Positions 8,835 to 36,100 of a stretch of DNA of 64,000 nucleotides are shown here, one piece after another; position 1 is the first letter of the stretch; every line of letters begins with the position of its first letter. The position numbers and the translations under genes were made by a program. Location: the NCBI GenBank assembly GCA_963575745.1, contig CAUYUJ010000115.1:372001-436000 (forward strand), in the 5' to 3' direction. This DNA comes from Prorocentrum cordatum. Its lineage: Eukaryota. The notes below the pieces were generated by a model that saw nothing but the letters and a program-made list of their open reading frames with translations, searched no databases and was not told the origin of the DNA.

Positions 8835-9329
8835 TCAGGCGGCTGCGGGCCTGAGGCCCAGGGCCTCCATGGCGGCCGCGGTGGCCTCCACGCACGGGCC
8901 CTTGCGCTTCCTCTGCGCCGCCCGCAGCACCTGCTCGGCGTCGGCCTGGTCCACCCGCCCACCGGCCTCGGCCGCCATGGCCAGGATCTCGGCCGCGGTG
9001 TCCAGCATGTTGAGCTTCACGCACATGCCGAGCATGCCGCTGTGCGCCGAGGCCGTCGGGGGGGCGTGCTCGAGCATCATCCTGTATACGTCCGTGGCGC
9101 GCTTGCCGTGGCGGTCGCGCAGGCAGCAGTGCACCAGCTGCGAGTACAGCCGCGGCTCCGGGACCACGCCCCGCATGGCCGGCTCCCGGCGGAGCATGTC
9201 CGCCGCCTCGTCAAGCAACTTGCACTGCGCGTAGAGCCGGATGAGGATGGAGAAGGTGGCGTTGGAAGGCTTTACGCCGCTGTCGACCATCTCCTGGTAC
9301 GTGCTCTTCGCGAGCTCGGCGTCCGCCTC
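8835..9329 (-). CDS. PPR protein, exon 8 (last; EADAELAK...GLRPAAA*)
   Basis: PPR motifs (SNATFSILIRLYAQCKLLDEAADML; EPRLYSQLVHCC); CCAAG|G acceptor; TGA at 8837-8835; in phase with exon 7. Confidence 0.92.
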   Translation of the reverse strand, partial: EADAELAKSTYQEMVDSGVKPSNATFSILIRLYAQCKLLDEAADMLRREPAMRGVVPEPRLYSQLVHCCLRDRHGKRATDVYRMMLEHAPPTASAHSGMLGMCVKLNMLDTAAEILAMAAEAGGRVDQADAEQVLRAAQRKRKGPCVEATAAAMEALGLRPAAA

Positions 9330-9621
9330 CTTGGAGGAAACCAAAAGACATCCGTATACTGCTACTCCACGGCCATCTCTATGACTACCTACCAGACCAC
9401 CCCATTCCGACCCGTAGACCCGAATTTCGGGTTGGGGGGTGGTACGGGCTTCATGTGTATTTTGTTGTCAATGTTCCCCGACTGGGGGCCTTTGGGTTGG
9501 GTTGGGGTGGTTTGGTGGGTGGTGACTCTTAGGGTGCAGTCCGAGCAGAAGTTCGAGGCGACCCCAGCCGTAGTGACGAGGGAATGATCTAGCGGCATTG
9601 GCATCTTTTCCTCCTCTGATC

Positions 9622-10207
9622 CTTGGCGCAGCCACCCAGGATGTTGTTGAAGATGACCTCGTCGGCCTTCAGGCCCAGCCCCACCATCGCCTCCTTCAGC
9701 CTGAGGGCGCCGTCTAAGCGGCCCGAGTCGCAGTTGGCCTTGATCAAAATCGAGAACGTGATGAGGTCGGGGGGCACCGTGCGCTCCGAGCGCATGTGCT
9801 CGTAGACCTCCATGGCTTTGTCGACCTGGCCGTCCCGAGCGAAGCCCTTGATGAGGGTCGTATAGAGCACCGTGTTCATCACGCAGCCGTTGGCCTTCAT
9901 CAGCTCGAAGACGTCCGCCGCCTTGGCGACCTGGTTCTCGTTGATGCAGCTGTCAAGGAGGATGCCGTACGTGACCTGCGTTGGCTCCACCCCGCGCGCC
10001 CTCATCAGCTCGAAGAGCTCGAAGACCTGCGAGATGCGTCCCGCCTTCGCGTACCCCTTCGAGAGCGTGTTGTAGGTGATCGCGTCGGAGACGCCGCCGG
10101 CCTCCGCCATCTCGTCCAGCAGCGCGCGGGCCTCGTCCACGCGGTCAGCGGCCACACAAGTAGCCAAGCAAGTGTTGTACGTCACGCTGTCGACATCGGT
10201 ACCGCTC
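9622..10207 (-). CDS. PPR protein, exon 7
   Basis: Five and a half tandem ~35-aa PPR motifs (DSVTYNTCL, DAITYNTLSKGYAK, TQVTYGILL, NTVLYTTLIKGFAR, DLITFSILIK, DEVIFNNIL); CAG|G acceptor, AAG|GA donor. Confidence 0.95.
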
Positions 10208-10381
10208 CTGAGGGCAACCATCAAAGGGTACCCGCACCGCTACTCCCCCGACCTCTCCTGGGGTGCGCTCTGACCAGAACTCCGAAGGGAATCCAGCCAT
10301 GGAAACGAGGGCCTCCGAGGCCCAACAAGGCGAAAACGGTGGAAGGGCAGCGGTATCCCTACCCTTTCCTCCTCCAGGCTC

Positions 10382-12825: not shown

Positions 12826-13488
12826 CCCTATCTTCTCCTTCACCAGTGCACCCTGGGGCGCTCCGCGCCTTAGGATTGGGATGCGAGACCGCCCTTGCCT
12901 GCTCGGGGTGGCCTGTTGAGGCCAGCTGGGGCTACTTTGGGAGCCTGCCTTCTGTGCGCCACCTGCGGGCGCATCCCTCCCGGGCCTGGATTTGTACAAC
13001 GCGCGGTCACCAGAAATCCCAGGCCTTTCCCTGAGGCTGGCTTCTCGTCGCATCGCATCGCCAGCGGCACGAGAGCTGTCTGCACTGTCATCCCGACGGC
13101 GCTGGCTTCTCATCCCGAGTTGTTTTTTGACGGTCCTGGGACCGGCGAGGGCCCCCACAGGTCGAAAGCCGCGACAAACCTCCGTACTGTGTTGTTCGAT
13201 GCGCTTGAGGTTTGGGTTGCCATTCGGGGGGGGGGGTGCTGTCTGCGCGCGAACCGAAACCTCACCTCCTCAGCTGCCCGATTCGCAACACTCAGCCCGT
13301 AGCGTGCTGACACGGAACTAAAAAAACGTGGATTGCAAACGTAAGGCTGGCGCGATACATGAGCCAAAACGTGGGCCAACACGTGCTGAGCCAGCAGGCA
13401 GCGTGTCCAACCCAGACGCTTTGCACACGGCACGGTTGCGCCCCCGCGCCGTTCCCCCTCCCCTGCGGCCGCCTCCTCTCTTCCCCTC

Positions 13489-22084: not shown

Positions 22085-23050
22085 ACTAGGTGCTGGCGTC
22101 AGTGCTGGTGTAGGCGCTGGTGTTAGTGCCGGGGTAGGCGCAGACGTTGGGCTGGCGTCGGTGCTGGTGTAGGCGCTGGCGTCGGCGCCGTCGCAGGCGC
22201 TGGCGTTGGGGCTGGCGCCGGTGCTGGCGTCGGTGCTGGTGTAGACGCTGGCGCTAGTGCCGGCGTAGTCGCATGTATTATTGCTGGCGTCTGTGCTGGT
22301 GTAGGCGTTGGCGTCGGCGCTGGCAAAGGCGCCGGCGTTGATGCTCGCGTCGGTGCTGGCGTCGGTGCCGGTGTAGACGGTCCAGCAGGGTCCCAGAAGA
22401 TCCTGCACGCCCTGCTCGTCGTCGAGCGCGCGCGGAAAGCAGCCGGCGGACGCTGCGGCGGCGGCGGCCCCCGTCTGGCGCTCCGCAATCGCCAAGCGCT
22501 CGGCCGCCCGCAGGGCCACATCCAGGTGCGCAGCGACGGGCTCCGCCCGCGCCGCCGCCGCGGCCAGGCCGCAACGGCAGTGGCACCGGCCGCCAGGGCT
22601 GCAAGCCTGGCAGAGCGCACCAGAGCCGCGGCGGCAGGACGACGGCCGACGGCAGTCGCCGCCTTGCAGGCGGCCGTGGCATCGGCGCAGGCGGCAGCCG
22701 CGCCGGAGCACAACGGCACGGCGGCCGCACACATGGCCGCCGCGCTGGCGCCGCTGGAGGGCGCCAGCAGCCTCGGCAGCGCCAGCGGCGGCCAGCGGAG
22801 CCGGCCCTGTCGGCGGCGCCATCCCCGGGAGCGGCGCGCCGCGCGCGGCGGCCGCGCGCCGCTGGCGGCGACGGACCGCAGACCGCGACGCCGCGGGGCC
22901 GGCGGCCGCGGCAGCCGCGGACGCGGTCGCCGCCCGCGCTATGGCCCACCGGGGCGGGGGCGGGAAGGGCGGAAGAAGGAGACCGAGGGCAAGCCCCCGG
23001 CCGCAGTCGCGCAAGCCAGCTCGAGCCAGAGCGGCTTGAGCCAGAGGGGC
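22085..23050 (-). pseudogene. Probable processed pseudogene of an Ala-rich / PTPA-repeat protein
   Basis: Starts with tandem dinoSL relics, has a decayed start context GCC ATA GCG at 22942, is apparently intronless and frameshifted, and carries TPAP repeats at 22085-22375. 3' end not defined. Confidence 0.6.
23020..23050 (-). other. Tandem dinoflagellate spliced-leader relics
   Basis: GCCCCTCTGGCTCAAG (13/16 to GCCATTTTGGCTCAAG) followed directly by CCGCTCTGGCTCGAG (11/15 to CCATTTTGGCTCAAG). Confidence 0.75.
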
Positions 23051-23182
23051 GTCTGACGCATGCGCACACACACACGCGCACACATACGTACACGCACACG
23101 CACACGCATACGCACACACATATATACACACACACTCGCATACACACGCACATTCGCACACACGCACACGCACACGTACCCA

Positions 23183-23205
23183 TCCGTTAGCGATTTTGGC
23201 TCTGG
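23183..23205 (+). other. Near full-length spliced-leader relic
   Basis: TCCGTTAGCGATTTTGGCTCTGG versus TCCGT-AGCCATTTTGGCTCAAG: 19 of 22 positions match, with one inserted T. Confidence 0.75.
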
Positions 23206-24660: not shown

Positions 24661-26170
24661 CTGCCGGGTTGAGCTCCGCAGCTGGTGCCTGGTCTGCCCC
24701 CAACCATCCAACGCTGTGGAAAACACCATGCGGCACAGATCTTCGCCGCTTTCTGCATCTGGGAGCCCTCACCGGGCCCAGAGGCCGCCGAACAACGACC
24801 TCGGGTGAAAAGCCCCCTCCTGGTGAGGTGTCTAGATCTCTGCAGGGGTTGACGCTGCGAGAATCTCACGACATCGGGGGTCTGGGTACGGTAGGCAGAA
24901 TGCAGCCAGGCGAATGTGAATGCCGCGTGTTCGGCCATGGCCTCTCCGGTGCCCATGCGACCTCCTTCGGCGGTGCTCTCGGCGGTCCTGAGGCGAGGAC
25001 GTCTTCGGTCTCCGGCGGCTCTTCTGTGTGAGAGCTGAATGGTCGGGTTCGACGAGAGGTCCACGATCGAACACAAAATGGATGGTATCGCCCGTGAAGG
25101 CGAGGGAGACTTAGTCCTGAGACTTAGGCGGTGAACGGGTGAACACAGTCTGGTTGCCGAAGCTAACTCCGGAGCTCGAGCCAAGAGAAGGTGTAGGAGG
25201 AGACGGAGTGGGGGGAGAAGCAACATGACGGAAGAGACGATGCAGGAAGCGTGAAACGAAGCACGAGAGCATGGGGATGGATTCTGCACCTCCTCGCGTC
25301 ACAACTCTGCTCTTGCGGCAACGACATATGGACGTATGGCGGCCACGACCGCGATGCTCCTCTTCGCACTACTCGTGAATACACATCCTTCTCGCACTCT
25401 GTCTCCCTATTATCCGCGTCTCTCCTCCCTCCAATACTCGTCCTCCTCCTCCATTATTCTTCCAACTCCCCTTGCTTGCCCCCTCCTTTGTTCTCGCTGC
25501 TCCATCCTGACTCCTACTACCCTCGCGGGTTTGTAGCGCGGGCGGGGAGAGGGACGGAGGAGGGATAGGAGGAGGAGGAGGAGGAGGAGGAGGAGGAGGA
25601 GGAGGCGGAGGAGGAGGAGGAGGAGGAGGAGGAGGATAATAAGGAGGAGGATAAGAGGAGGAGGAGGAGGAGGAGGAGGAGGGAGGAGGAGGAGGAGGAG
25701 GAGGAGGAGAGGAGAATGAGGAGGAGGAGGAGGGGGAGGAGGGGGAGGAGGAGGAGGAGGAGGAGGAGGAGGAGGAGGAGGGAGGAGGAGGAGGAGGAGA
25801 GGAGGAGGAGGAGGAGGAGGAGGAGGAGGAGGAGGAGGAGGGGGGAGGGGAGGATAGGAGGAGCAGGAGCAGGAGGAGGAGAAGAGGGGAAGTAGGAGGA
25901 GGGAGGGGCGGATGAGGGAAGGACGGGATGAGGGAGGAGGGGGAGAAGGAGGAGAAGGAGGAGGAGGAGGAGGAGAGGAGGAGGAGGAGGAGGAGGAGGA
26001 GGAGGAGGAGGAGGAGGAGGAGGGGACATCCTGACTCCTACTACTCTCGCGGGTTTGTAGCGCGGGTGGGGAGAGGGAGGGAGGAGGAGGAGGAGAGAAG
26101 GAGGAGTAGGAGGAGGAGGAGGAAGAGGAGGAGGAGAAGGAGGAGGAGGAGGATGAGGAGAGGAGGAGAA

Positions 26171-26201
<31 letters not shown>

Positions 26202-26212
26202 GAGCAGGAGGA

Positions 26213-26227
26213 GGAGGGGGAGGGAGG
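26213..26227 (+). repeat. LINE target-site duplication, left copy
   Basis: GGAGGGGGAGGGAGG, identical to 33183-33197 and directly adjacent to both element ends. Confidence 0.8.
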
Positions 26228-26273
26228 TATGGTATGGTATGGGTTTGCGCTAAACGCGGGGTCAAGCCCCAAT

Positions 26274-29200
26274 TCAGAAGGACTCGGCGTCGGAGTCGCC
26301 CTCCTCAGGGCTGTCCGCGCTCCGCAGCAGGGCCGAGCGGCCGAGGTCACGGACCAGTTCGAGCTCCCCCTCCCACAGCCCAAACGCCCTCAGCACCTCG
26401 GCCCGCCCCCCATGGTCAGCCCGCCCCCATCCGCCACAGGCCCCGACGCTTAGGGCCGCGGGCTGTGGCTCTGGGGGCAGGCTCAGCTCGGCCTCGGCGA
26501 GGCTCGAGCGGGTCGCTGGCAGCACTCCATGCGGCTTCCCGACCTTCAGCGAGCGCACATTGGCGCGGTACGAGGGGAACTCTCCTTTCTTGATCCTCCG
26601 CAGCTGGTCTACGCCTCCAGCTTTGGCCTTCTCGGGGCACCACCCCCTTAGGCCTGGGGATAACTTGCCGTCCGAGGAAACGGTGCCACAGCGGCAACAG
26701 AAGACGACAGAAGAAACGTGGGCAGTGCGGCAGAGCACGTCAGCCTCCAGCAGGTTGTGGCCTTGCCACCAAAAACTGGCATCTGCATATTCTTCCCACC
26801 CGTCTCCCACCCCGTACGGCGACCCCACCTCCCCTCCACGGCCGCGCGCCTGGGGCTCAGGCTCGGGGTCTTCTGGGGTCTCAGGGTCCTCCTCAGCAGC
26901 AGCGCCCCGAGACCTCCAGTACGCTTCCATCAAATCTTCGTGGTCCTGGCCATTGGACTCTACGTGCACCCAAGCCGCCCAACGGGCGGACTCTTGGGCT
27001 AAAAACACAAAGCCTTGCCACAACTGAAACTGCTCTTCGCCTACGCCGTGCTCCGCAGCACCGAGCTTCGCAAACCTGTCGGCGTGGGCGTTCCCTCTGT
27101 ACTCCCACTCCGTGGTAACACCCGCATCTACCTGGGCTCTGGTACAGTGGGCCTTGGTTTTAAAAACTTGGAAGTCCCCTTCGGAGAACGCACCCCAGAA
27201 CGGACTCCAGAGCTGGGCCCGACCACAACTGCTTTGGGATCCAGAGCCCGCGCCGCCCCGCAAAGTCCCAACAGTGCCTGCACAGTCGATGAAGACGTCG
27301 AAGGGCGCCATAGCACAAACGCGCAGCATCGAGACGGCGTAATCCTCCGCGTCTCTAGAACTCTGCTTAGGGCAAATACGACGTGGGACGGGCCCGTAGG
27401 ACGCCGAAATTACATCGCCAAATCTATCCACCTGCACGATGGCCCAGCCCGCTCGGGCCAAAAACGGGGCCGAGGCCCATAAGGCCGACCCGTCTAAGAA
27501 CAGCGTGCCACTCAGGAGCCCTGACTCAGGACGGTTGTGCCACAAGATGGTATCTTGGGCCTCGGTCGCGACGTGGAAGACCAACTCTGGCGACGGGAAC
27601 AGGCCTCTCGCAAACCTCTCCCCCTCGTCGTACCCCCATTCGCGGACCCTGCGGGCTCTCGTCCTGTGGAAATCGTCAACCCATTCACGTCTGAGCCCTG
27701 CATACTTTGGGCACTCGTATGCCCTGTGCCACAAGGACCCGTCGGGATCTCCACATACAAGACACCTCGCTGAGCCAACAAGTCCATGGTGGTGAAGCCG
27801 ACTTTGTGGCCAGTGTCCTCCAGAAACCAAGGATCTCAACGTCCTCTGAAACCTCTTCGTCCAGGATCCCTTGGTTCGATGCAGGAGCCCCTCAAGTCCT
27901 GCCCAAAATATCGGCAAATTCCACCTGGCTTTGGGCTCACGACAAAAAAGAGCTTGGCGATCGGAAGCTCGCCTGGCTCCTGCAACTGCTAGCTCCTGAA
28001 CGAGCGCTGGAGGTAAAACGCGAAGGTCAAGTGCTTCCTGCCGATCCGTGACCATGCACGCTCCTGACCGAAAACTCCAGCCTATCCTGCGAAGACTGAG
28101 CACTGCTACTTCAGCTGGGGCTGCTGCTTGTCTCCAAGGTGATTGGACTCCTTCGAGACGGCCCAGGGCTCCTTCAAGACACCGTTCCAAAACAGGAAGC
28201 TTCGGAAGCGACTCCCAGACCGCCGCCGCCCATTGGAACACAACCATCCCGATGTTCAACAGCAGCGGGTCCACTCGGACCCCTTCAGCATAGCTCAAGA
28301 GACGGAGCCCGACCGTGGAGCCCTTGGGGACCTTCCCGAGACTTCCAGCAGCTCCCAATCGAAGCCGATGAAGTTGGGTCGAAGGAATCCCCATGATGCT
28401 GGACCCCCATAGAGCCGACGCCGTAGGGCCTCCACGCTGAATGAACCCCGTGTTGGCCCCCGCCTCCCTGAGCTTCTTAATCTTAATCGTCCTCCCTCTG
28501 GCCTTGTCCCACCTGTCCCGAGTGATCTGAACCCTCCGTATGGACCCCATCACCGCGTCGGTGCCGAGGTTCCTTGCATGGTCCACCTTGCTTTCCTTCG
28601 GGAGGTCCCACAGGGGCTGCAAGGCCTCATTCAAGTCCGAGTCGCTAGTCATGTACTTCGACTTTTCCGAGACGGGGAGCTCGAGCTCCGAGAAACTGGA
28701 CAGCAGGGACTGCACACCTGCGGCGAGCTGCGGTGCAATGAGCTGCTGCGGACCAACAATCTGCAGCGCGATATCGTCTATCACGTTACGGATGCACAAC
28801 TGCGGCCGGCCAGACTGCGCGGCCGAGAGCGGCGACAACAAAAGCAACTTCGTAAGCGCGGTAGCTGCAGAGCACCCTGCTATGACTGCCCCATTGCCTT
28901 GCACCTTCCTAGATACCGCCCCTCCATAGTGCAGCATCCTATCCCCTGCATAAATCACGCACAACCCTCGCAGGAGCTTCAAATTGAAACCATGCTGGCA
29001 CGCCGCACGATACAAGTCCATATGGTCGATGTGCTCATAGAACTTCTTAAGGTCCAGGAGCACCGTCGCCGCCGAGGTCCCCAGGACTTTCCCGAAATGG
29101 GCCAGCATGTTGTGGACCCATCCTGCTCGTTCACAGGTAGACGTGGCCCCGACGCCCCAGAAGAAGGCCTGCTCGTGGGCCTGTTCCCAGGTACGGCAGA

Positions 29201-31868
29201 TGTTTTGACGGCACTTCGACCAGATCTTGGTGAACATGCACAATAATCCTATCGGGCGTACTCCACCATCTGGCTTGTCGAGGAAGATGATATTCGTCAA
29301 AAACTCTGCGATCACACAGGGTCGATCCTCGAACGAGCGAAGGATGTCGATAACACGCAATTGATACTCTTCTGGAAGAAACAAGATCTGGCGGGGATGG
29401 AAGGAGTCCCACCCAAGACCAGCCCCTTCCCCATACGAGTTACACACACGTCTCAACTGTTCCAGAGAGATAGGTGGTAATTCTTGTCCCAACACATCCC
29501 AATGAGCTGGGTGATCTTTGCTGAGCCTGCCTTCTTTGTGCCAGAGGGGAAGCCACTGCTCTAGAAGCTGGAGGAGCGCGAGCTCACCGTTGACTGGTAA
29601 GCGGCCGTGGTCGTCTACGACACTGAACGGGACCGTCCTGTCTGCGCGAGAAACCCTGGAATATGCATGCGCTGCCTTCCCTCCCCGCTGCACTGACGAC
29701 TTAGCCCACTCCTTCCACTCCGATAGGGACTCCTTGGCGTCCAACTTTCGCAGGCCTTCTACATACTCTCGTAACTGCCCGAACAGCCCTTCTAACTCCT
29801 CTCTGAGCCCCATGGATATCCCTTCGACTAGGCTGACCAAAAATCGGACATTCGTGCCTTCGTCTGGCGCCTCCAGCGCCGAGATCATCCCGAACAGGGC
29901 GGCACACCATTCATGAAAAAGACCGCGAGCTCTGGCGCCTAGCATATCTGGGCCAACTGCAGCAGCTCGACGCGCCAACGCCTCGAAGGACATCCAACTG
30001 GTGGTCCGCTTTGAATATCTTCTCCTAGACTCTCGGTCCCAAACCGTCTCGAGGGGAACCTTAGTGACTTTAGGCCCCCCAGCTCTTCCACACGTCCTGG
30101 CCGCGCTAGCACTGTCTAGGTCGTGGCACTGCACGAGCCAGCCCTCGGCCTGGGTGAACCATTCCCTGACCATGGACCCCAAACAGTGCGAGCCTCCTCC
30201 AACTTCCCAAGACCACGTGCCTTCCGTAGGGAGCCTCCGAGGACCCACAAGCTTGTCCAAGGGGAACTGCGCATATCTAACCTGCTTCGGGACAACCGTC
30301 GACGGGGCCAGGTTCTTGACAACGATACCCACAGGCATATGAGGCCACGAGGGGGCTGCAGGGAACGCCAGGACCTCCTTGACGCAGTGCCCCAAACACC
30401 TGGACCCCACGAAGAAATCGATCTCCCGCTCATCCTTCCTGTCGAACTCCTCCTCGGGCCCTGAACTGGATCCTGGAGCGGGCCCTGATCGACACGTAGC
30501 GTGGCCCGTCGTAAACATACATCCCCCAACCTTGGACACCCATTCCGATGCTTCGAGTTCCTCAGGGGTGAGGTTCCAGTCCCCTTGCACGATCCAGAGG
30601 CAGGTGAGGGACTTGATGTACTCTCCGAGAGTGTTCAATACCTCAACGTTGTCCCCTGCGACTCCAATGCTGGTGTAGAGGTAGACCGAGAAGACCATCA
30701 ACCCGCCTGGAAGTCCTACGTTGATGTGCCTGCTTGCCACTCGCGACTTGAAAGGTTCCAACTCGGGTGGCCTTGGCACACTAGAGGACGCCAGAGAGCT
30801 GGCCACTGCCAAGCCTACTCCTGCCGAGGACTGCGTCGGACCTGGCCCAGTAGACGCTGCAGGTCCTAGAGAAAAAGCGAAGGAGCGGCGATCGCCCCAG
30901 CCATAGGCGGAGTCCAACTTGCCCTTCTCCTTCAGCCGAGTCTCTTGCACGCAGATCACATGCGGCTTGACTGGTTCGCCTGAAGCCGACACCACGCCGA
31001 AGAGGTTCGCTTCTTGGTCCCTACACCAGTCAACCACATTAGTGAACGAGTCCCACGTGTTCGCATTCACTCCAAAGATGATCAGATCGCTGACGATCGT
31101 GCCCGCGTGGTCGACTCCTCGAACCACGCCGTCCTGACCTAGTTTTCCCTTTTTGCGTCCATCGCCAGGTGGGGACGAGAGATGGTGTAGCCCTTTCCGC
31201 TCGGAGGGCAAGTCTCCTTGGGCACCGTCGGGGCTAGCTTGACACACCGCTGCCCCTGCCGCAGGTGGAGGCAGACCGCCACATCCTTCCATGAAATCGC
31301 CCAGGCCTCCACCGAGAACACAGGGCCCATCACTTCCAGATGCGACGCAAGCCTGCAACGCACCATGCCCATGAACAGGAGGGGAGGAGAGGTGGCGCGG
31401 GCCTTTCCGCCCCACAGATGCACCTCCAGACGCCCTGGTACTTCCTCTCGACGTGGTGCCCGAAGACGCGGGAGCCGCCGACCCCGCGGTGGTACCCGAA
31501 GAAGATGTGGACTCGCGGGGAAGGCCCCCAGCCCCGTTGCGACCGAGGGGTCCCACCTCGCGCGACATAAGAGACAGTGACGCTATCGGGGTCGAGGTCG
31601 ACCCAGCAGGCGATGTCCCTGGCCCTGACCCTCTTCGAGGGTCCTCGACCCGAGGGGGGGCTGCTCCGCGAGACCGTCCGTCTCTGTCCGAAGCTCCGTG
31701 GCCCAGGCGAGGCCACTGCCGTGGGTCCAGACCGACCCCGTCGAACTGGCGGAACAGCTCCGTGTCGAAGATGAGGTCGTCCCTCCGCACTGGGACTGCG
31801 AAACCCGTCGCCTGCTCCCAGTCGAAGTCGATCACGTTGCCCCTGGTGAACGCGTCGAGGTCGGCCAT
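26274..31868 (-). CDS. LINE ORF2: AP endonuclease, reverse transcriptase, zinc finger, RNase H, C-terminal zinc finger (1864 aa from first ATG after ORF1)
   Basis: APE motifs GVNANT, CVQETRL, QGDWN, IDFF, WPH; RT motifs KPDGGVRPIGLL, LLDLKKFYEHID, IAGC, VIDD; CLVC..H....C; RNase H FLDGS, AED, IDC, KAH, GNAHADRFAK; H...CCRC...C. Start codon inferred. Confidence 0.93.
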   Translation of the reverse strand: MADLDAFTRGNVIDFDWEQATGFAVPVRRDDLIFDTELFRQFDGVGLDPRQWPRLGHGASDRDGRSRGAAPPRVEDPRRGSGPGTSPAGSTSTPIASLSLMSREVGPLGRNGAGGLPRESTSSSGTTAGSAAPASSGTTSRGSTRASGGASVGRKGPRHLSSPPVHGHGALQACVASGSDGPCVLGGGLGDFMEGCGGLPPPAAGAAVCQASPDGAQGDLPSERKGLHHLSSPPGDGRKKGKLGQDGVVRGVDHAGTIVSDLIIFGVNANTWDSFTNVVDWCRDQEANLFGVVSASGEPVKPHVICVQETRLKEKGKLDSAYGWGDRRSFAFSLGPAASTGPGPTQSSAGVGLAVASSLASSSVPRPPELEPFKSRVASRHINVGLPGGLMVFSVYLYTSIGVAGDNVEVLNTLGEYIKSLTCLWIVQGDWNLTPEELEASEWVSKVGGCMFTTGHATCRSGPAPGSSSGPEEEFDRKDEREIDFFVGSRCLGHCVKEVLAFPAAPSWPHMPVGIVVKNLAPSTVVPKQVRYAQFPLDKLVGPRRLPTEGTWSWEVGGGSHCLGSMVREWFTQAEGWLVQCHDLDSASAARTCGRAGGPKVTKVPLETVWDRESRRRYSKRTTSWMSFEALARRAAAVGPDMLGARARGLFHEWCAALFGMISALEAPDEGTNVRFLVSLVEGISMGLREELEGLFGQLREYVEGLRKLDAKESLSEWKEWAKSSVQRGGKAAHAYSRVSRADRTVPFSVVDDHGRLPVNGELALLQLLEQWLPLWHKEGRLSKDHPAHWDVLGQELPPISLEQLRRVCNSYGEGAGLGWDSFHPRQILFLPEEYQLRVIDILRSFEDRPCVIAEFLTNIIFLDKPDGGVRPIGLLCMFTKIWSKCRQNICRTWEQAHEQAFFWGVGATSTCERAGWVHNMLAHFGKVLGTSAATVLLDLKKFYEHIDHMDLYRAACQHGFNLKLLRGLCVIYAGDRMLHYGGAVSRKVQGNGAVIAGCSAATALTKLLLLSPLSAAQSGRPQLCIRNVIDDIALQIVGPQQLIAPQLAAGVQSLLSSFSELELPVSEKSKYMTSDSDLNEALQPLWDLPKESKVDHARNLGTDAVMGSIRRVQITRDRWDKARGRTIKIKKLREAGANTGFIQRGGPTASALWGSSIMGIPSTQLHRLRLGAAGSLGKVPKGSTVGLRLLSYAEGVRVDPLLLNIGMVVFQWAAAVWESLPKLPVLERCLEGALGRLEGVQSPWRQAAAPAEVAVLSLRRIGWSFRSGACMVTDRQEALDLRVLPPALVQELAVAGARRASDRQALFCREPKARWNLPIFWAGLEGLLHRTKGSWTKRFQRTLRSLVSGGHWPQSRLHHHGLVGSARCLVCGDPDGSLWHRAYECPKYAGLRREWVDDFHRTRARRVREWGYDEGERFARGLFPSPELVFHVATEAQDTILWHNRPESGLLSGTLFLDGSALWASAPFLARAGWAIVQVDRFGDVISASYGPVPRRICPKQSSRDAEDYAVSMLRVCAMAPFDVFIDCAGTVGTLRGGAGSGSQSSCGRAQLWSPFWGAFSEGDFQVFKTKAHCTRAQVDAGVTTEWEYRGNAHADRFAKLGAAEHGVGEEQFQLWQGFVFLAQESARWAAWVHVESNGQDHEDLMEAYWRSRGAAAEEDPETPEDPEPEPQARGRGGEVGSPYGVGDGWEEYADASFWWQGHNLLEADVLCRTAHVSSVVFCCRCGTVSSDGKLSPGLRGWCPEKAKAGGVDQLRRIKKGEFPSYRANVRSLKVGKPHGVLPATRSSLAEAELSLPPEPQPAALSVGACGGWGRADHGGRAEVLRAFGLWEGELELVRDLGRSALLRSADSPEEGDSDAESF

Positions 31869-31941
31869 GCCGACGCCCGCCCACGCCGCTGGCACGGGGG
31901 CACTGGTCGCCACTGGGTCAGTATCAGCCCGCTCTCTGCCG

Positions 31942-33057
31942 TCACCCTCGACGCGCCTTCTTGGCCGTGTGCTCGGCGAGCAGCTTGGCCACGGCTGCAG
32001 ACGTGTCCCCTTCGCCGTCCATGGCGCGCTTGAGGGACTCCTGGAAGTCGGCCTCCAGGAAGTCGGACTCGTCCATGGGGACGGCCTGGTGCTCTCCTCC
32101 ATTCCCAGGGGCATCCTCTGCCTGGCTCCCAGCACCAGCACCATGATCGCCAGGAGGGCCTGGGCGAACGTCCTCGTCCTCTGTCGCCTGCTTGGCTGCC
32201 TCCGCCTCCGCAGCCGCCTTGCGCTGCAGCTCCTCGAGGACAGCAAGGGCATCCTTTCCTTCCTGCGTGGACAGCACCGCAGGTTCCAGCCCCGCCGTGA
32301 GCACCTTGAGAGGGTTCTCGTGCTCACCTGCCTGGAGCTTCGCCAGCACTCCTCGGGCGGCGACGAGGTCCGCCTTGGCCTGGTCGATCCCCTTCTGGAT
32401 GCCGTCCAACTCCTCGTCGAGGGCTGCCCTCTGCTCGTTGATGACAACGCAGCGGGCCTCTGCCTTCTGGATCTTCTTCTTGAGGTTCTCCACCTTCCAC
32501 CAGGCCGACATTGTGGTGGGCGGCTTGGGCGGCGCCGTAGCCTTGGTCTGCGCTGCCGCCAGGACCGCAGCATGGGCGTCCTCAAGGCCCTCACTCTTGA
32601 GGAACTCCGCCACCAGCTCATGAGAGAGCCCTGCAGCAGCCGCTGGCGCCTCGCCCTTGGCCTTCGGCGGGCCGCCTCCAGCAGGGCCCTGCCCCTTGCC
32701 AATGCCCTTCGCCTTGGCGCCCGCTGGCTGCTCGTGCCAAGGGGGCGCTGGCGGCGCCGGCTTGCCGCTGAGCTCCGCCACCTTGGCCCGCAGCTCCTGG
32801 ATGATCCTCGCCTGCTCGGCCGCGACTGCCCCTCCTGGCGGCCCATCGGCCCAGGCTCCCTGAGCACGTTGCTTGACCGAAAACGAGGGACTCTGGGTAG
32901 CCGCAGCAGCTCTGCGCGCCGCCTGGACCACCTTTGCGGGTGCCGATGCCCCGCAGCTCCTGCACTTGACCCGATTCGCCCAGTTGTTCCAGCAGCCGCA
33001 AGAGCACCCCCAGTAGGGGGTGCGCGCGCCTGGCAGCACATCGGGCTGTGGAACCAT
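31942..33057 (-). CDS. LINE ORF1 (371 aa): RanBP2-like zinc finger plus coiled coil
   Basis: WGCSCGCWNNWANRVKCRSC near the N-terminus; helical region KVENLKKKIQKAE...LAKLQ; basic C-terminus KKARRG; ATG at 33057. Confidence 0.85.
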   Translation of the reverse strand: MVPQPDVLPGARTPYWGCSCGCWNNWANRVKCRSCGASAPAKVVQAARRAAAATQSPSFSVKQRAQGAWADGPPGGAVAAEQARIIQELRAKVAELSGKPAPPAPPWHEQPAGAKAKGIGKGQGPAGGGPPKAKGEAPAAAAGLSHELVAEFLKSEGLEDAHAAVLAAAQTKATAPPKPPTTMSAWWKVENLKKKIQKAEARCVVINEQRAALDEELDGIQKGIDQAKADLVAARGVLAKLQAGEHENPLKVLTAGLEPAVLSTQEGKDALAVLEELQRKAAAEAEAAKQATEDEDVRPGPPGDHGAGAGSQAEDAPGNGGEHQAVPMDESDFLEADFQESLKRAMDGEGDTSAAVAKLLAEHTAKKARRG

Positions 33058-33165
33058 GCGCCGCTCGCGGTGCGGTCGCTGGCTCCTCTCCGTGAAAGAA
33101 CGAAAGGATGGCTCGCAAGCGCGAGCCGCTCTGAAGAACGCGCTTGCAAGCTCAGGCCACAACAG

Positions 33166-33182
33166 CCTGAGCCAGAACGGCT
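33166..33182 (-). other. Spliced-leader relic forming the LINE 5' terminus
   Basis: AGCCGTTCTGGCTCAGG versus AGCCATTTTGGCTCAAG: 14/17, all three differences are transitions; starts at the first base after the TSD. Confidence 0.75.
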
Positions 33183-33197
33183 GGAGGGGGAGGGAGG
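33183..33197 (+). repeat. LINE target-site duplication, right copy
   Basis: GGAGGGGGAGGGAGG, identical to 26213-26227. Confidence 0.8.
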
Positions 33198-36100
33198 AGG
33201 AGGTGGAGGAGGAGGAGGAGGAGCAGGAGGAGGAGGGGGAGGAGGAGAAGGAGGAGGAGGAGGAGGAGGAGGAGGAAGAGGAGGAGGAGAGGAGGAGGAG
33301 GAGGAGGAAGGAGATGGAGGAGGAGGAGGAGGAGGAGGGGGGAGGAGGAGGAGGCGGAGGAGGAGGAGGAGGAGGAGGAGGAGGAGGAGGAGGAGGAAAG
33401 AGAAGGAGGAGGAATAGGAGAAGGAGGAGCAGGAGCAGGAGCAGGAGGAGAGAGGGGAGGAGGAGGAGGAGGAGGAAGGAAGAAGAGGGAAGTGGGGAGG
33501 AGGGAGGGGTCTAGGGATGAGGGAAGGGAGGGGATGGGGGAGGAGGGGAGGAGGAGGAGGAGAAGGAGGATGGGAGGAGGAGGAGAGGAGGAGGAGAGGA
33601 GGAGGAGGAGGAGGAGGGAGGAGGGACCTGACTCCTACTACTCTCGCGGGTTTGTAGCGCGGGTGGGGAGAGGGAGGGAGGAGGGATGGGGGAGGAGGAG
33701 GAGGGGGAGGAGGAGGAGGAGGAGGAGGAGGAGGAGGAGGAGGGGGAGGAAGAGGAGGAGGATGAGGAGGAGGGGAGGAGGAGAGGAGGAGGAGGAAGAT
33801 AGGAGGAGGAGAGGAGGAGAGGAAGGGGAGGAGGAGGAGGAGGAGGAGGAGGTGGAGGAGAGGAGAGGAGGAGGAGGAGGAGGAGGAGGAGGAGGAGGGA
33901 GGAGGAGGAGGGAGGAGGAGAGGAGGAGGAGGAGGAGGAGGAGGAGGAGGAGGAGGAGGAGGGGAGGAGGAGGAGGAGAAGGAGGAGGAGGGGCAGGAGG
34001 AGGAGGAGGAGGAGGCGGAGGAGGAGGAGGAAAAGGAGGAGGAGGAGGATAGGAGGAGGAGGAGGAGGGGAGGAGGAGAGGAGGAGGAGGAGGAGGGGAA
34101 TAGGAGGAGGAGGAGAAGGAGGAGGAAGCAGGGAGGAGGAAGAGGGAGGGGGAGGGATTAGGGAAGAGAGGGGGATGAGGGAGGAGGGAGGAGAAGGGAG
34201 GAGGGAGGACGGAGAAGGGCGGAAGGATAGCTACCTCACCATCCCGCCCCGAAGCCGAGGCCCCTGCTCCGGCCGGCCGCCCGGTGGCACCACCAGGAGC
34301 AGCTGCGGTTCGGAGTGGCCTTGGACGCGGCCGCGGTAGATCGAAGCGCAGATCACAGGCCGGACGGCATCTCGGGAGGGCGGGTGCCGGTCACAAGGGC
34401 CTCCTCCTCCTCCTCCTCTCCTCCTCTCCTCCTCCTCCTCCTCCTCCTCCTCCCGTGCTGCTGCTGACCCCGCCCGCCTCCCTCTCTGCCTCCCCAGACA
34501 TCCTCGCGTCACGGATCAGACTCGGCAGACGGCTCTGGGCCGTTTTCGGCAGCTGGGGGCCCGTGCTGTCACAAAACGACTCAGGACTCCGTGCCGGGCA
34601 AGGGGTCCACACCCCCACGGGGTCCACGTTGCAAAACAAGCACAGCGTCGGAGTTCTGGGTCCCTCCTCCTCCGTCTCCTCCGGGTCCACCATCCTCGTT
34701 CCTGCTGCTGCTCCTCATCCTCCTCCGCATTCCCCGTCCCTCCTCGGATGCACTCATGCTTCCTCGTGCTACTGCTCCTCCGCCGCCCAGGACCTGGTAC
34801 AACGACGGCAGGTCACGCCCTGGTGCACGAGAGCTGTCCGAGAGCCAGCGACCTCCTCCTGCTCCTAGTCAGCGACCTCCTCCTGCTCCTACTCTCCGCC
34901 ATCTCCACCTGCTCCTCCTCAAGCGCCTCCTGCTCTCTCCTCCTGCTCCCTCCTCCTCGTTCTCCGTTTCTCTCCTCCTGTGCCCCGCGCCCTCTCATCT
35001 CTCTGCCTGGTAGCACCCCTATCACTCCATAACTGCGTACCCGTGGAAACTTCTGTGTACAAGCACAACCACAGATGCATGCACAAGGTACGAAGACACA
35101 TACGCACACACACTCCCACGCAAGGGGACTCGCGCGCTTGGGTGGCATGCAGGTGCGTAACACACATGAAGGTGCACGCAAACACATCGGCGTATAACTA
35201 CACAAACATGCAGCTGCGCGCCACTATGAAGACCGATGGGTCGGCGCTCACCAGGAACATGGATCCCCAGAAACGGATCCCCCGGACCTTCTCCGCTTCA
35301 GCCTGGGTAGCGCGAAGCTCGCTGCGAACTAGTCACGCTCCTTCGTCTCCGAACTGTCCGAGCTCACTGAAACCTTGTGCGTGCGTCTTTTTGGCCGTGA
35401 GGTTGGCAGACACTAGTAGTAACGAGAGCGAATTGAATAACTACTAGGCGGGACAGAAATGTGGGCGAAGAACACAAAGTACAACTAGGCCTCTCTGATC
35501 GGCTTGCCCAAGCAAAATCGGCCCGCCCACAACACACACACAAGCACACACACACACACACACACTCCTCCTCGTCCTCATCTCCTGTTGGCCCGCTCGA
35601 GCAAAATCAATGCCCTTAGAGAAGGGTGCTCCTTCTGGCAACTTGTCCGAAATCTCCTCAACGCGCAGAGCGTCGCATATGCGGAAGAGCCGTAGGCGCT
35701 GGTCTGGGAGAAATCTGACCTCGTGCCCCGGGGGAGGGGCATGAGGGGCAGGATGGGGACTTGGTGCGGAGCGTGGGAGAATAAGGAAGAGGAGGCTCCA
35801 ATTGCGCTGTCACGCCGCTTAGTTGCCGACCTGTCGTCTGACTGACATGCCTTATCAACGTGATTCGAGAGCCTGCACCTCTCGCCATGTCCAACTCCTT
35901 CTCTGTACCCGCCGCCTCGACGTTCAAAGAGGAGATCCTGGTTGCCGATATTGCATGTATGTCGCCAACATTCTACTGGTCCTTCCGCATGAGTGCGTGA
36001 GATGCTCTCTGAGTCCTCCCTGCCTCCTCGCTCTCTTCTCGTTGATCGCATTCTTCCTGAGCTGCACCTCCACCGTTCCTGCATTCAGACCACCAACCTC

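What the first reader, a model, noticed from the sequence alone, without database searches (positions are those of the whole stretch)
33150..33200. Intact LINE that begins with a spliced-leader relic and may use its (TCC)n target as a trans-splice signal
Seen on the minus strand: ~1 kb of mostly (TCC)n, the TSD CCTCCCTCCCCCTCC, then AGCCGTTCTGGCTCAGG (14/17 to the dinoSL 3' part) as the first bases of the element. An 8-bp hairpin GCTCAGGC/GCCTGAGC overlaps it, and there are only ~125 nt before ORF1. Target plus element therefore read as a long pyrimidine tract, then CAG, then the transcript. Known: dinoflagellate mRNAs are SL trans-spliced, and the AG inside a relict SL can be reused as the acceptor. 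Inference: the element may need no internal promoter. It could be cut out of read-through transcripts and capped by trans-splicing, with oriented insertion into (TCC)n restoring the acceptor each cycle. It may also drive SL-mRNA recycling.
Basis: partly seen in the sequence, partly recalled or inferred. Interest (0 to 1): 0.88.

Follow-up and report, generated by a model that had tools for sequence, protein, structure and literature searches.

The report
LINE that starts with spliced-leader relics
An intact jumping gene in a dinoflagellate genome begins with worn copies of the short leader that these algae splice onto their messenger RNAs, which shows its ancestors were copied from processed messages but not that it depends on that splicing today.

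Summary
On the minus strand, 33182->26227 is an intact 6.96-kb LINE. It has ORF1 (371 aa), ORF2 (1864 aa; APE endonuclease, RT), a (CATAC)3 tail and a 14-15-bp target-site duplication. It sits in a (TCC)n-rich satellite. Its first 17 nt match the DinoSL 3' part at 14 of 17 positions (2 such sites in the window, 0.05 expected). Nt 18-32 look like a second, older relic in phase (9/15).

The relic is inherited, not fresh. It carries 3 substitutions in a young copy. A second, divergent copy in a DNA run starts with the same TCC|AGCCGTTCTGGC and shares two of those substitutions. Neither copy has new leader bases. So ancestors were copied from trans-spliced mRNA. The recent transposition template, however, began at the relic itself, which fits an internal promoter or precise processing better than liberation by trans-splicing.

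Targeting of (TCC)n is unproven. This is the commonest microsatellite type here (6.4% of the non-element window), and the upstream TCC may belong to the element. No RNA data and no further 5' ends could be obtained. I file it as a new member of known kinds (LINE; DinoSL-tagged retrocopy), of moderate interest.

The parts
33183..34218 (-). Upstream flank: (TCC)n-rich part of a higher-order satellite. The 329 nt next to the element contain no AG, and the last 300 nt are 97% pyrimidine.
   Evidence: TRF, period 3, 343.7 copies; sequence; AG and purine count
33183..33197 (-). 5' copy of the target-site duplication, CCTCCCTCCCCCTCC
   Evidence: Exact 15-mer repeated at 26227-26213 and absent from the rest of the flanks
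33166..33182 (-). DinoSL relic 1, AGCCGTTCTGGCTCAGG: the first 17 nt of the element, 14/17 to DinoSL positions 6-22
   Evidence: DinoSL sequence as printed in PMC7245778
33151..33165 (-). Probable older relic 2, CTGTTGTGGCCTGAG: in phase, 9/15 to CCATTTTGGCTCAAG; also the 3' arm of hairpin 1
   Evidence: >=9/15 at 0.35% of positions; aligns with the second relic of the 23055(-) unit
33108..33182 (-). Structured 75-nt 5' module: the relics plus two adjacent hairpins
   Evidence: Fold -39.2 kcal/mol, z = -2.94. In run X1, 6 contigs match down to 33104/33109 and run on unlike below.
31942..33057 (-). ORF1, 371 aa: N-terminal RanBP2-like Cys4 zinc finger, then a coiled-coil-like region
   Evidence: 176 relatives by phmmer; conserved W..C..C..N..C..C; no Pfam family
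26274..31868 (-). ORF2, 1864 aa. APE endonuclease at about 31040-30528, RT at about 29279-28647, weak zf-RVT at about 27839-27705, RNase H-like D..E..D..D motifs seen by eye at about 27500-27069.
   Evidence: the family profile matches exonuclease III chains at E = 1.3e-4; relatives about 40% identical in Prorocentrum cordatum
26227..26273 (-). 47-nt 3' UTR with a small GGGG/CCCC hairpin, ending in (CATAC)3; no poly(A)
   Evidence: Sequence
26213..26227 (-). 3' copy of the target-site duplication; its first C is shared with the tail
25505..26212 (-). Downstream flank: continuation of the same satellite, with the marker unit GCGCTACAAACCCGCGAG... at about 26060 and 25536 (also at 33657 upstream). 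This shows a simple insertion into a pre-existing array.

Best explanation
This is a young, intact APE-type LINE of a dinoflagellate-specific lineage. It inserted by target-primed reverse transcription into a (GGA/TCC)n-rich satellite.

Its first 32 nt (35 if the preceding TCC belongs to it) are one, and probably two, tandem decayed DinoSL relics. This is the same tag that dinoflagellate retrogenes carry. An ancestor of the family was therefore reverse-transcribed from SL-trans-spliced mRNA. If the second relic is real, this happened after trans-splicing at the AG inside an earlier relic.

The relic is now a heritable part of the family's 5' end, not a fresh leader. The RNA that gave rise to this copy, and to a divergent sister copy, began at the relic itself.

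Inferred, not shown: transcription starts at (or the RNA is cut at) element nt 1, directed by the conserved, structured 75-nt 5' module, as in LINEs with internal promoters. SL trans-splicing, if it occurs, serves translation rather than defining the transposition template. The (TCC)n tract is most simply the target, a very common sequence type in this genome region.
For: LINE anatomy:
- TSD, tail and both ORFs are present.
- APE and RT match Pfam just under the curated cut-offs. The family profile matches exonuclease III chains in the PDB. Relatives carry PF00078 and PF03372.

Youth and activity:
- The TSD is perfect and both ORFs are open.
- In DNA run X1, 388 contigs lie on the element, 74 of them >=99% alike.
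- Of the 37 listed variant sites in ORF2, 23/11/3 fall on codon positions 3/1/2, p = 3e-4.

The relic is real:
- 14/17, with 2 hits against 0.05 expected, placed exactly at the TSD-defined 5' end.
- Three other relic arrays in the window have the same style of decay.
- The second unit is in phase at 9/15, a score reached at 0.35% of positions.

The relic is inherited:
- An X1 contig diverges from the window inside nt 13-26. It still reads TCC|AGCCGTTCTGGC, sharing the A>G and T>C changes, and has no extra leader bases.

Background from the literature:
- Relics arise from retro-copied SL-mRNA and are cut at the AG (PMC3229502, PMC7245778, passages).
- RT-type genes are enriched among DinoSL-relict genes in Symbiodinium (PMC5585692, passages).
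Against: - Only two 5' termini were seen. The second is one contig with 3 nt of flank, because read laying masked 33179-33225.
- There are no RNA data.
- An internal promoter is inferred, not tested. The TTT(T/G) motif proposed as the DinoSL-borne promoter (PMC6050394) is lost in both relics (TTCT, TTGT).
- The leading AG could equally be the last two bases of a fresh leader.
- Relic 2 is weak (9/15), and its sequence may instead have been shaped by the hairpin.
- The X1 variant does not keep hairpin 1 intact (one A.A mismatch, no compensating change).
- X1 may be the sample from which the window was assembled, so it is not independent support for abundance.
Confidence: 0.6

Rival explanations
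1. The element has no promoter. Read-through transcripts are trans-spliced at the CAG that follows the (TCC)n tract, which both liberates and caps the LINE RNA. Oriented insertion into (TCC)n rebuilds the acceptor in each cycle.
For: - The 329 nt upstream hold no AG, the last 300 nt are 97% pyrimidine, and the first AG after the tract is element nt 1-2.
- The probable tandem relic implies the relic AG was used as an acceptor at least once in the past.
- The element is co-oriented with the minus-strand units found in the window: the PPR gene and the relic-bearing units at 23055 and 13400.
- The second copy is also preceded by TCC.
Against: - Trans-splicing at AG|CC yields leader + CCGTTC..., so new copies should start with fresh leader bases. 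In 2 of 2 termini there are none.
- The relic is diverged in a young copy, and a divergent copy shares those changes.
- The AG itself would be spliced away. It could return only if exactly 2 nt of the new leader were copied each time.
- Full-length leader relics exist elsewhere in the window (23181+), so leaders can be copied.
- GGA/TCC microsatellites are 17 of the 35 microsatellite arrays and 6.4% of the non-element window.
- No sequence consensus beyond AG is reported at dinoflagellate acceptors (PMC2488372).
Confidence: 0.1
2. The DinoSL relic itself is the core promoter, following the idea of Song and colleagues for retrogenes: the retro-copied leader carries a TTT(T/G) motif that drives transcription.
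For: - The hypothesis is published for retrogenes (PMC6050394 and PMC5585692, passages).
- The relic sits at the very 5' end and is retained in two diverged copies.
Against: - In both relics the T-run is broken (GTTCTGG, GTTGTGG), so the proposed motif is absent.
- A promoter placed at nt 1-17 would be expected to start transcription downstream of itself, and the relic would then be lost from progeny.
Confidence: 0.12
3. A self-cleaving ribozyme in the 5' module, as in R2 or L1Tc, releases the RNA from co-transcripts exactly at nt 1.
For: - The 75-nt module is more structured than shuffles, z = -2.94.
- By eye, nt 1-7 can pair with the loop of hairpin 2.
- HDV-like ribozymes do this job in other LINEs, including in trans-splicing trypanosomatids (PMC3185411 and PMC4035085, abstracts).
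Against: - No Rfam ribozyme family matched at E <= 10.
- By hand, there is no room for P3/L3 or for J4/2 with its catalytic C, and the first base is A rather than G.
- A 7-nt complement within 125 nt is expected by chance about once in ten (my own estimate).
Confidence: 0.07
4. The resemblance to DinoSL is chance, and the 5' end has nothing to do with trans-splicing.
For: - The match has 3 mismatches, and they fall in the Sm-site T-run and the terminal AAG.
- The genome is GC-rich, and GGCTC-like words recur.
Against: - Only 2 of 127,968 window positions reach 14/17, and the other one is itself a clear leader relic.
- The match sits exactly at the TSD-defined terminus.
- A second unit follows in phase.
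- Other relic arrays in the window show the same T>C decay.
Confidence: 0.04

Closest known systems
Dinoflagellate retrogenes tagged by DinoSL relics (mRNA recycling; Slamovits and Keeling 2008, as described in PMC3229502, PMC7245778 and PMC5585692)
   Same: - A leader-derived sequence at the 5' boundary of a retro-copied unit.
- Probably tandem 15-nt units that decay toward the 3' side.
- RT-type genes are already reported as enriched among relict-bearing genes (PMC5585692).
   Different: - Here the tagged unit is the autonomous retrotransposon itself, with defined TSD and tail.
- The relic is transmitted unchanged as the element's own terminus, and no new leader is added.
- In four literature searches I found no paper describing a LINE terminus of this kind.
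Pr77 hallmark / L1TcRz of trypanosomatid L1Tc/ingi elements (PMC1874656, PMC3383444, PMC3185411: search listing and abstracts)
   Same: - The host also uses SL trans-splicing.
- A roughly 75-77-nt 5'-terminal module appears to be shared among diverged copies.
- It is the proposed way for transcripts to begin exactly at nt 1 without a leader.
   Different: - I compared no sequences.
- Promoter and ribozyme activity are untested here.
- No HDV-like fold was detected.
- Pr77 is not derived from a spliced leader.
R2 and other LINEs released from co-transcripts by HDV-like ribozymes (PMC4035085 abstract; R2 details recalled)
   Different: - There the cut is made by a ribozyme, not by trans-splicing, and the target is a specific gene.
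- No ribozyme was found here.
SL-gene-specific LINEs SLACS/CZAR/NeSL (recalled, no call)
   Same: These are LINEs whose 5' end adjoins spliced-leader sequence.
   Different: - Those have a restriction-like endonuclease and sit inside SL RNA genes, so the leader sequence is target.
- This element has an APE endonuclease and lies in a (TCC)n satellite with a TSD, so the leader-like bases belong to the element.
Microsatellite-targeting LINEs (class mentioned in the PMC4640811 abstract; the names Kibi, Koshi, Waldo and Mino are recalled) and stringent-type LINEs with a 3' stem-loop plus short-repeat tail (UnaL2/ZfL2, recalled)
   Same: - Insertion inside a microsatellite.
- A short tandem-repeat tail, (CATAC)3, and a small 3' hairpin instead of poly(A).
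   Different: - The tail repeat does not match the target repeat.
- Target specificity is not shown (one insertion).

Membership tests
APE-type non-LTR retrotransposon (LINE) | Reverse transcriptase domain | tested here: met
   RVT_1 at E = 2.7e-6, 27.7 bits, just under the 29.6 cut-off. Relatives found with this region carry PF00078. An xxDD motif (VIDD) is seen by eye.
APE-type non-LTR retrotransposon (LINE) | AP-endonuclease-like domain N-terminal to the RT | tested here: met
   Exo_endo_phos at E = 1.1e-4, 22.5 bits against a 24.5 cut-off. The family profile matches exonuclease III chains at E = 1.3e-4.
APE-type non-LTR retrotransposon (LINE) | Target-site duplication and a simple 3' tail with no LTRs | tested here: met
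   14-15-bp TSD and a (CATAC)3 tail. No other copy or terminal repeat of the element in the window.
APE-type non-LTR retrotransposon (LINE) | Multi-copy family, with many copies lacking the 5' part | tested here: met
   388, 24 and 79 contigs of three DNA runs lie on the element. Summed contig depth in X1 is 26-130 over ORF1 and the 5' end, against up to 330 over ORF2. Depth from contigs is only a rough guide.
DinoSL relic (tag of retro-copied trans-spliced RNA) | Sequence match to the 3' part of DCCGTAGCCATTTTGGCTCAAG | tested here: met
   14/17; 2 hits against 0.05 expected; 2 of 127,968 positions.
DinoSL relic (tag of retro-copied trans-spliced RNA) | Lies at the 5' boundary of the retro-copied unit | tested here: met
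   It directly abuts the TSD.
DinoSL relic (tag of retro-copied trans-spliced RNA) | Further relics cut at the AG (15-nt units) follow in tandem | tested here: inconclusive
   Nt 18-32 match at 9/15 in phase, a score reached at 0.35% of positions. The unit aligns with the second relic of another unit. It also forms hairpin 1.
DinoSL relic (tag of retro-copied trans-spliced RNA) | Transcripts carry a fresh DinoSL in front of the relic | not testable with these tools
   No RNA holder was listed, and nothing was laid from the run guessed to be RNA.
HDV-like ribozyme at a LINE 5' end (R2 / L1Tc type) | Match to known ribozyme models, or a nested double-pseudoknot fold | tested here: not met
   No ribozyme family matched at E <= 10 in 32850-33350. 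By hand, P3/L3 and J4/2 cannot be placed.
SL-RNA-gene-specific LINEs (SLACS/CZAR/NeSL) | Inserted inside an SL RNA gene; restriction-like endonuclease | tested here: not met
   Both flanks are one (TCC)n satellite with a TSD. The endonuclease is APE-like.
Microsatellite-specific LINE | Copies lie consistently in one repeat type and orientation | not testable with these tools
   The own genome is not held, and flanks of other copies were masked. One insertion plus 3 nt (TCC) of a second. Background: 6.4% of the non-element window, or 3.5% without the target array (3.5% is my arithmetic).
Microsatellite-specific LINE | 3' tail repeat matches the target repeat | tested here: not met
   The tail is (CATAC)3 and the target is (TCC)n.
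Pr77-like 5' hallmark (internal promoter) | 5'-terminal module conserved among diverged copies and able to start transcription at nt 1 | tested here: inconclusive
   Six X1 contigs match from 33104/33109 upward and run on unlike below. One variant keeps nt 1-12. Promoter activity is not testable here.

The most novel reading that the evidence does not exclude
This LINE family uses its fossil spliced leader as a working trans-splice acceptor. Precursors that start upstream, including read-through across the pyrimidine-rich target, are trans-spliced at the relic AG to make the capped, translatable mRNA, so the element needs no promoter of its own. Insertion into (TCC)n supplies the pyrimidine tract. 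A minority of RNA ending at nt 1 serves as the transposition template, which would explain why fresh leaders are not copied.
Probability: 0.1. Interest if true: 0.8.

Novelty: new member of a known kind. Interest (0 to 1): 0.42.

Why it matters
LINEs in Symbiodiniaceae and Polarella are described in print as ancient, highly diverged remnants (PMC8045281, passages). The enzyme behind the massive retro-copying of dinoflagellate mRNA is also stated to be unknown (PMC6050394 and PMC5585692, passages).

This is a complete LINE with defined ends, and it appears to have been active recently. Its own terminus shows that LINE RNA has passed through SL trans-splicing and been copied back into the genome. 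It gives a concrete reference element for three uses:
- finding full-length copies;
- asking whether such elements start transcription internally in an organism whose promoters are barely known;
- testing which reverse transcriptase makes retrogenes.

Its non-poly(A) tail suggests it may not be the one that copies polyadenylated mRNAs. That is inference.

Tried and rejected
- Own genome: not held, so other copies could not be collected.
- No other copy in the window by blastn or tblastn.
- Earlier findings of the scan: nothing by sequence, place or words.
- Metagenome contigs, ORF1 as query: 418 pattern matches, none confirmed.
- Metagenome contigs, 20-nt degenerate 5'-end pattern: 47 loci. 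None extends beyond 20-24 nt of identity and none has ORF similarity, so all are chance.
- Viral contigs, RT alignment as query: 140 pattern matches, none confirmed.
- Sequencing runs: no RNA holder was listed. From run X8, guessed to be RNA, nothing was laid. This says nothing about expression.
- Read laying skipped 26190-26251 and 33179-33225 as repeats, so the flanks of other copies stay unseen. It showed 40 of 458 variant rows and 16 of 64 loose ends.
- ORF1 word-index search: no hit. This was a sensitivity limit, since phmmer found 176 relatives.
- ORF2 alone against PDB sequences: no hit.
- Rfam on the 5' region: only two sub-threshold lncRNA matches driven by the CT-rich tract.
- HDV-like fold by hand: rejected.
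- Satellite marker unit against the LINE 3' end: no similarity beyond shuffles. The (TCC)n arrays are therefore not tails of truncated copies of this LINE.
- TSD search for the three other relic-bearing units: only microsatellite matches.
- Bacterial-type promoter and terminator scan: not applicable, 0 found.
- Protein Atlas and cluster-member look-up were not available. Taxa of the unnamed ORF1/ORF2 relatives are therefore unknown, apart from the Prorocentrum cordatum names.
- Pfam on 118 other ORFs of the window: only a PPR protein.
Full report
**What is in the sequence**

On the minus strand, the region 34218-33183 is a period-3 (TCC)n-type array (343.7 copies, 76% matches). It ends in CCTCCCTCCCCCTCC. 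Directly after it comes AGCCGTTCTGGCTCAGGCTGTTGTGGCCTGAGC.

The same 15-mer recurs at 26227-26213, directly after a (CATAC)3 tail. It occurs nowhere else in 1776 nt of flank.

Between these two copies lie 6956 nt, laid out as follows:
- a 125-nt 5' UTR;
- ORF1, 33057-31942, 371 aa;
- a 73-nt spacer;
- ORF2, 31868-26274, 1864 aa;
- a 47-nt 3' UTR.

ORF2 gives sub-cut-off but specific Pfam matches to Exo_endo_phos and RVT_1, in the order expected of a LINE. A profile built from it and nine relatives matches exonuclease III chains in the PDB at E = 1.3e-4. ORF2 alone finds nothing there. Its nearest named relatives, about 40% identical over the RT region, are Prorocentrum cordatum proteins, some carrying PF00078 and PF03372.

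ORF1 has no Pfam family, but phmmer finds 176 relatives. They share an N-terminal W..C..C..N..C..C zinc finger. By recall this is RanBP2-like.

The element is therefore an intact APE-type LINE, and the host is a dinoflagellate.

**The flanks**

The two (TCC)n flanks belong to one higher-order satellite. A marker unit (GCGCTACAAACCCGCGAG...) occurs at 33657, 26060 and 25536 and nowhere else in the window. A second conserved sub-motif lies in the same relative place in the interrupted unit and in the intact unit (read by eye). The interrupted unit measures about 615 nt without the LINE, against 532 nt for the intact one.

This is a simple insertion into an existing array. The marker unit is unrelated to the LINE's 3' end, so the arrays are not tails of earlier copies.

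**The leader match is not chance**

The DinoSL sequence is DCCGTAGCCATTTTGGCTCAAG (PMC7245778 and PMC8045281, passages). The first 17 nt of the element match positions 6-22 at 14 of 17.

The whole window, both strands, has two sites with <=3 mismatches against 0.05 expected. The other site (23189+) is part of a nearly full-length leader relic, TCCGTTAGCGATTTTGGCTCTGG. Empirically, 2 of 127,968 positions reach 14/17, and this one sits exactly at the TSD-defined terminus.

The window holds further relic arrays with the same kind of decay, mainly T>C in the T-run:
- a double relic at 23055->23020(-) in front of an ORF;
- a triple relic at 13400->13358(-).

**A probable second relic**

Element nt 18-32 (CTGTTGTGGCCTGAG) lie exactly in phase behind the first unit. 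They match the 15-nt relic form CCATTTTGGCTCAAG at 9/15. Only 0.35% of window positions score that high. They also align with the second relic of the 23055 unit (score 53; shuffles 26.7 +/- 5.5, maximum 44).

Relics of this 15-nt form arise when a new leader is spliced onto the AG inside an earlier, retro-copied leader (PMC3229502 and PMC7245778, passages). If relic 2 is real, the family went through at least two rounds of leader addition and retro-copying, and the relic AG was used as an acceptor at least once.

**Is the relic fresh or inherited?**

The copy is young:
- the TSD is perfect;
- both ORFs are open;
- in DNA run X1, 388 contigs lie on the element, 74 of them >=99% alike and 172 at 95-99%;
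- runs X2 and X3 (a marine metagenome) give 24 and 79 contigs.

Of the 40 variant sites shown (out of 458), 37 lie in ORF2. They fall 23/11/3 on codon positions 3/1/2 (p = 3e-4). This is the pattern of copies descending from coding-competent lineages.

Yet the relic differs from DinoSL at 3 of 17 positions.

One X1 contig departs from the window between nt 13 and 26. On the minus strand its loose end reads TCCAGCCGTTCTGGCACAGGTGGCGAC. This is another copy. It has the same first 12 nt, including two of the three substitutions, and is preceded only by TCC before the contig ends.

So the decayed relic has been passed on as the very 5' end through the divergence of at least two sublineages. In 2 of 2 termini seen, no fresh leader bases have been added.

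Suppose the transposition template were made by trans-splicing at the CAG. It would then read leader + CCGTTCTGG.... Elsewhere in this window leaders have been copied from position 1 (23181+).

New LINE copies should therefore begin with a canonical leader or a variable 5'-truncated piece of one, and relics should pile up. The AG would also be removed with the outron. It could reappear only as the last two bases of the new leader, which would need the same 20-nt truncation every time.

The two termini argue against that. The template RNA began at the relic.

The simplest ways to achieve this are initiation at nt 1 directed from inside the element, or precise cleavage at nt 1.

- **For an internal signal.** The first 75 nt (relics plus two adjacent hairpins) fold better than shuffles (z = -2.94, 2 of 200). 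Six X1 contigs match this part down to 33104/33109 and run on unlike below it. One of the two consensus loose ends still shows partial similarity to the window, so at least some of these are diverged copies rather than different elements.
- **Against the specific relic-as-promoter idea** (PMC6050394, PMC5585692). Its TTT(T/G) motif is lost in both relics.
- **Against a ribozyme.** No Rfam family matched at E <= 10, and an HDV-like fold cannot be drawn by hand.

None of this excludes trans-splicing of the element's mRNA for translation. I have no RNA evidence at all: no RNA holder was listed, and nothing was laid from the one run guessed to be RNA.

**The (TCC)n target**

There are three reasons for caution.

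- **This repeat type is common.** Microsatellites cover 10.4% of the non-element window. GGA/TCC-type arrays cover 6.4%, or about 3.5% without the target array itself (my arithmetic). They are 17 of the 35 microsatellite arrays, nine with the purine strand on + and eight on the other (counted by eye from the list). One insertion there in one orientation is a 2-6% event, not proof of targeting.
- **The boundary is ambiguous.** The target continues with TCC after the TSD. The element may therefore start with TCC and have an 11-12-bp TSD. TCC--AGCCGTTCTGGCTCAGG then reads as a whole leader (D = T) with GT deleted. The TCC in front of the X1 variant would then be element, not target.
- **No pyrimidine-tract requirement is established.** A study of trans-splice sites in Amphidinium found an AG acceptor with some flexibility and no simple consensus around it (PMC2488372, passages).

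The tail (CATAC)3 does not match the target, unlike what I recall of many microsatellite-specific LINEs.

**Does it drive mRNA recycling?**

An intact APE/RT element is a candidate source of reverse transcriptase, and the literature I read leaves that source open (PMC6050394 and PMC12014239, passages). But this element ends in a short hairpin and a pentanucleotide repeat, not poly(A). By analogy with stringent-type LINEs (recalled), that suggests recognition of its own 3' end. Short genomic poly(A) stretches at gene 3' ends are reported for dinoflagellates (PMC2488372). This is inference only.

**Comparison with what is known**

DinoSL relics on retro-copied genes are well known. RT-type functions ('RNA-dependent DNA replication') are reported as enriched among relict-bearing genes in Symbiodinium (PMC5585692, passages).

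In four literature searches, and in the passages read, I found no description of a LINE whose defined 5' terminus is a leader relic, nor of trans-splicing as a LINE liberation mechanism. Supplements were not consulted.

The nearest functional parallel is the 77-nt Pr77 hallmark of trypanosomatid L1Tc/ingi elements. It is an internal promoter giving unspliced transcripts, combined with an HDV-like ribozyme, in another trans-splicing host (PMC1874656, PMC3383444 and PMC3185411: listing and abstracts).

The element is not an SL-gene-specific LINE of the SLACS/NeSL type (recalled). Its flanks are a satellite, and its nuclease is APE-like.

**Verdict**

- Observation: confirmed.
- Interpretation: partly supported. 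The leader relic and the intact LINE are real, and past reuse of the relic AG is probable. A promoterless cycle that depends on trans-splicing, with oriented (TCC)n targeting, is not supported, and the two termini available argue against it.
- Classification: a new member of known kinds, of moderate interest. It serves mainly as a clean reference element and as a testable case for how LINEs are expressed in dinoflagellates.

Noticed in passing
window 23020-23205: Two leader-relic units lie head to head across a (CGCACA)n microsatellite at 23063-23176. On the minus strand there is a double relic, GCCCCTCTGGCTCAAG + CCGCTCTGGCTCGAG, followed by an ORF starting near 22821. On the plus strand there is a nearly full-length leader, TCCGTTAGCGATTTTGGCTCTGG. 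A (TG/CG)n tract recurs about 3.8 kb downstream of the minus-strand unit (19260-19060), so this unit too may sit inside a microsatellite.
   Followed up: partly
window 13358-13400 (minus strand): Three tandem leader-like units: TGCCTGCTGGCTCAG, CACGTGTTGGCCCA and CGTTTTGGCTCATG. The best-preserved unit is the most 3' one, the opposite of the usual decay order.
   Followed up: no
window 25505-26226 and 33183-34225: The (TCC)n array is a higher-order satellite of about 530-620 nt per unit. It has a 35-nt marker (GCGCTACAAACCCGCGAG.GTAGTAGGAGTCAGG) present three times and a second conserved sub-motif. Its origin is unknown, and it is unrelated to the LINE's 3' end.
   Followed up: partly
window 31945-33057 (minus strand): ORF1 belongs to a sizeable unnamed protein family: 176 representatives at E <= 1e-3. 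The conserved core is an N-terminal zinc finger, VLxGPKTPxWGCxCGxxxNWASRIKCRxCG (RanBP2-like by recall). The word-index search had found none of them.
   Followed up: partly
window 31375-34157: Across the ORF1 region, the ORF2 frame (391 codons upstream of its ATG) and an antisense frame (680 codons, 31375-33417) are also free of stops. This is probably a by-product of GC-rich, T-poor codon usage rather than extra genes.
   Followed up: no
window 8838-10239 (minus strand): A PPR-repeat protein (PPR_2, E = 8.6e-51) is the only Pfam-recognisable host gene among the 118 ORFs of at least 170 aa lying outside the element and its satellite flanks (25400-34400).
   Followed up: no
whole window: GGA/TCC-type trinucleotide arrays are the commonest microsatellite type: 17 of the 35 arrays with period <= 6, covering 6.4% of the non-element sequence.
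   Followed up: yes
window 31789-31840: Contigs of runs X1 and X3 repeatedly break off at the start of ORF2. The loose-end consensus still encodes MADLDGF..., so sublineages differ most around the ORF1/ORF2 junction.
   Followed up: no
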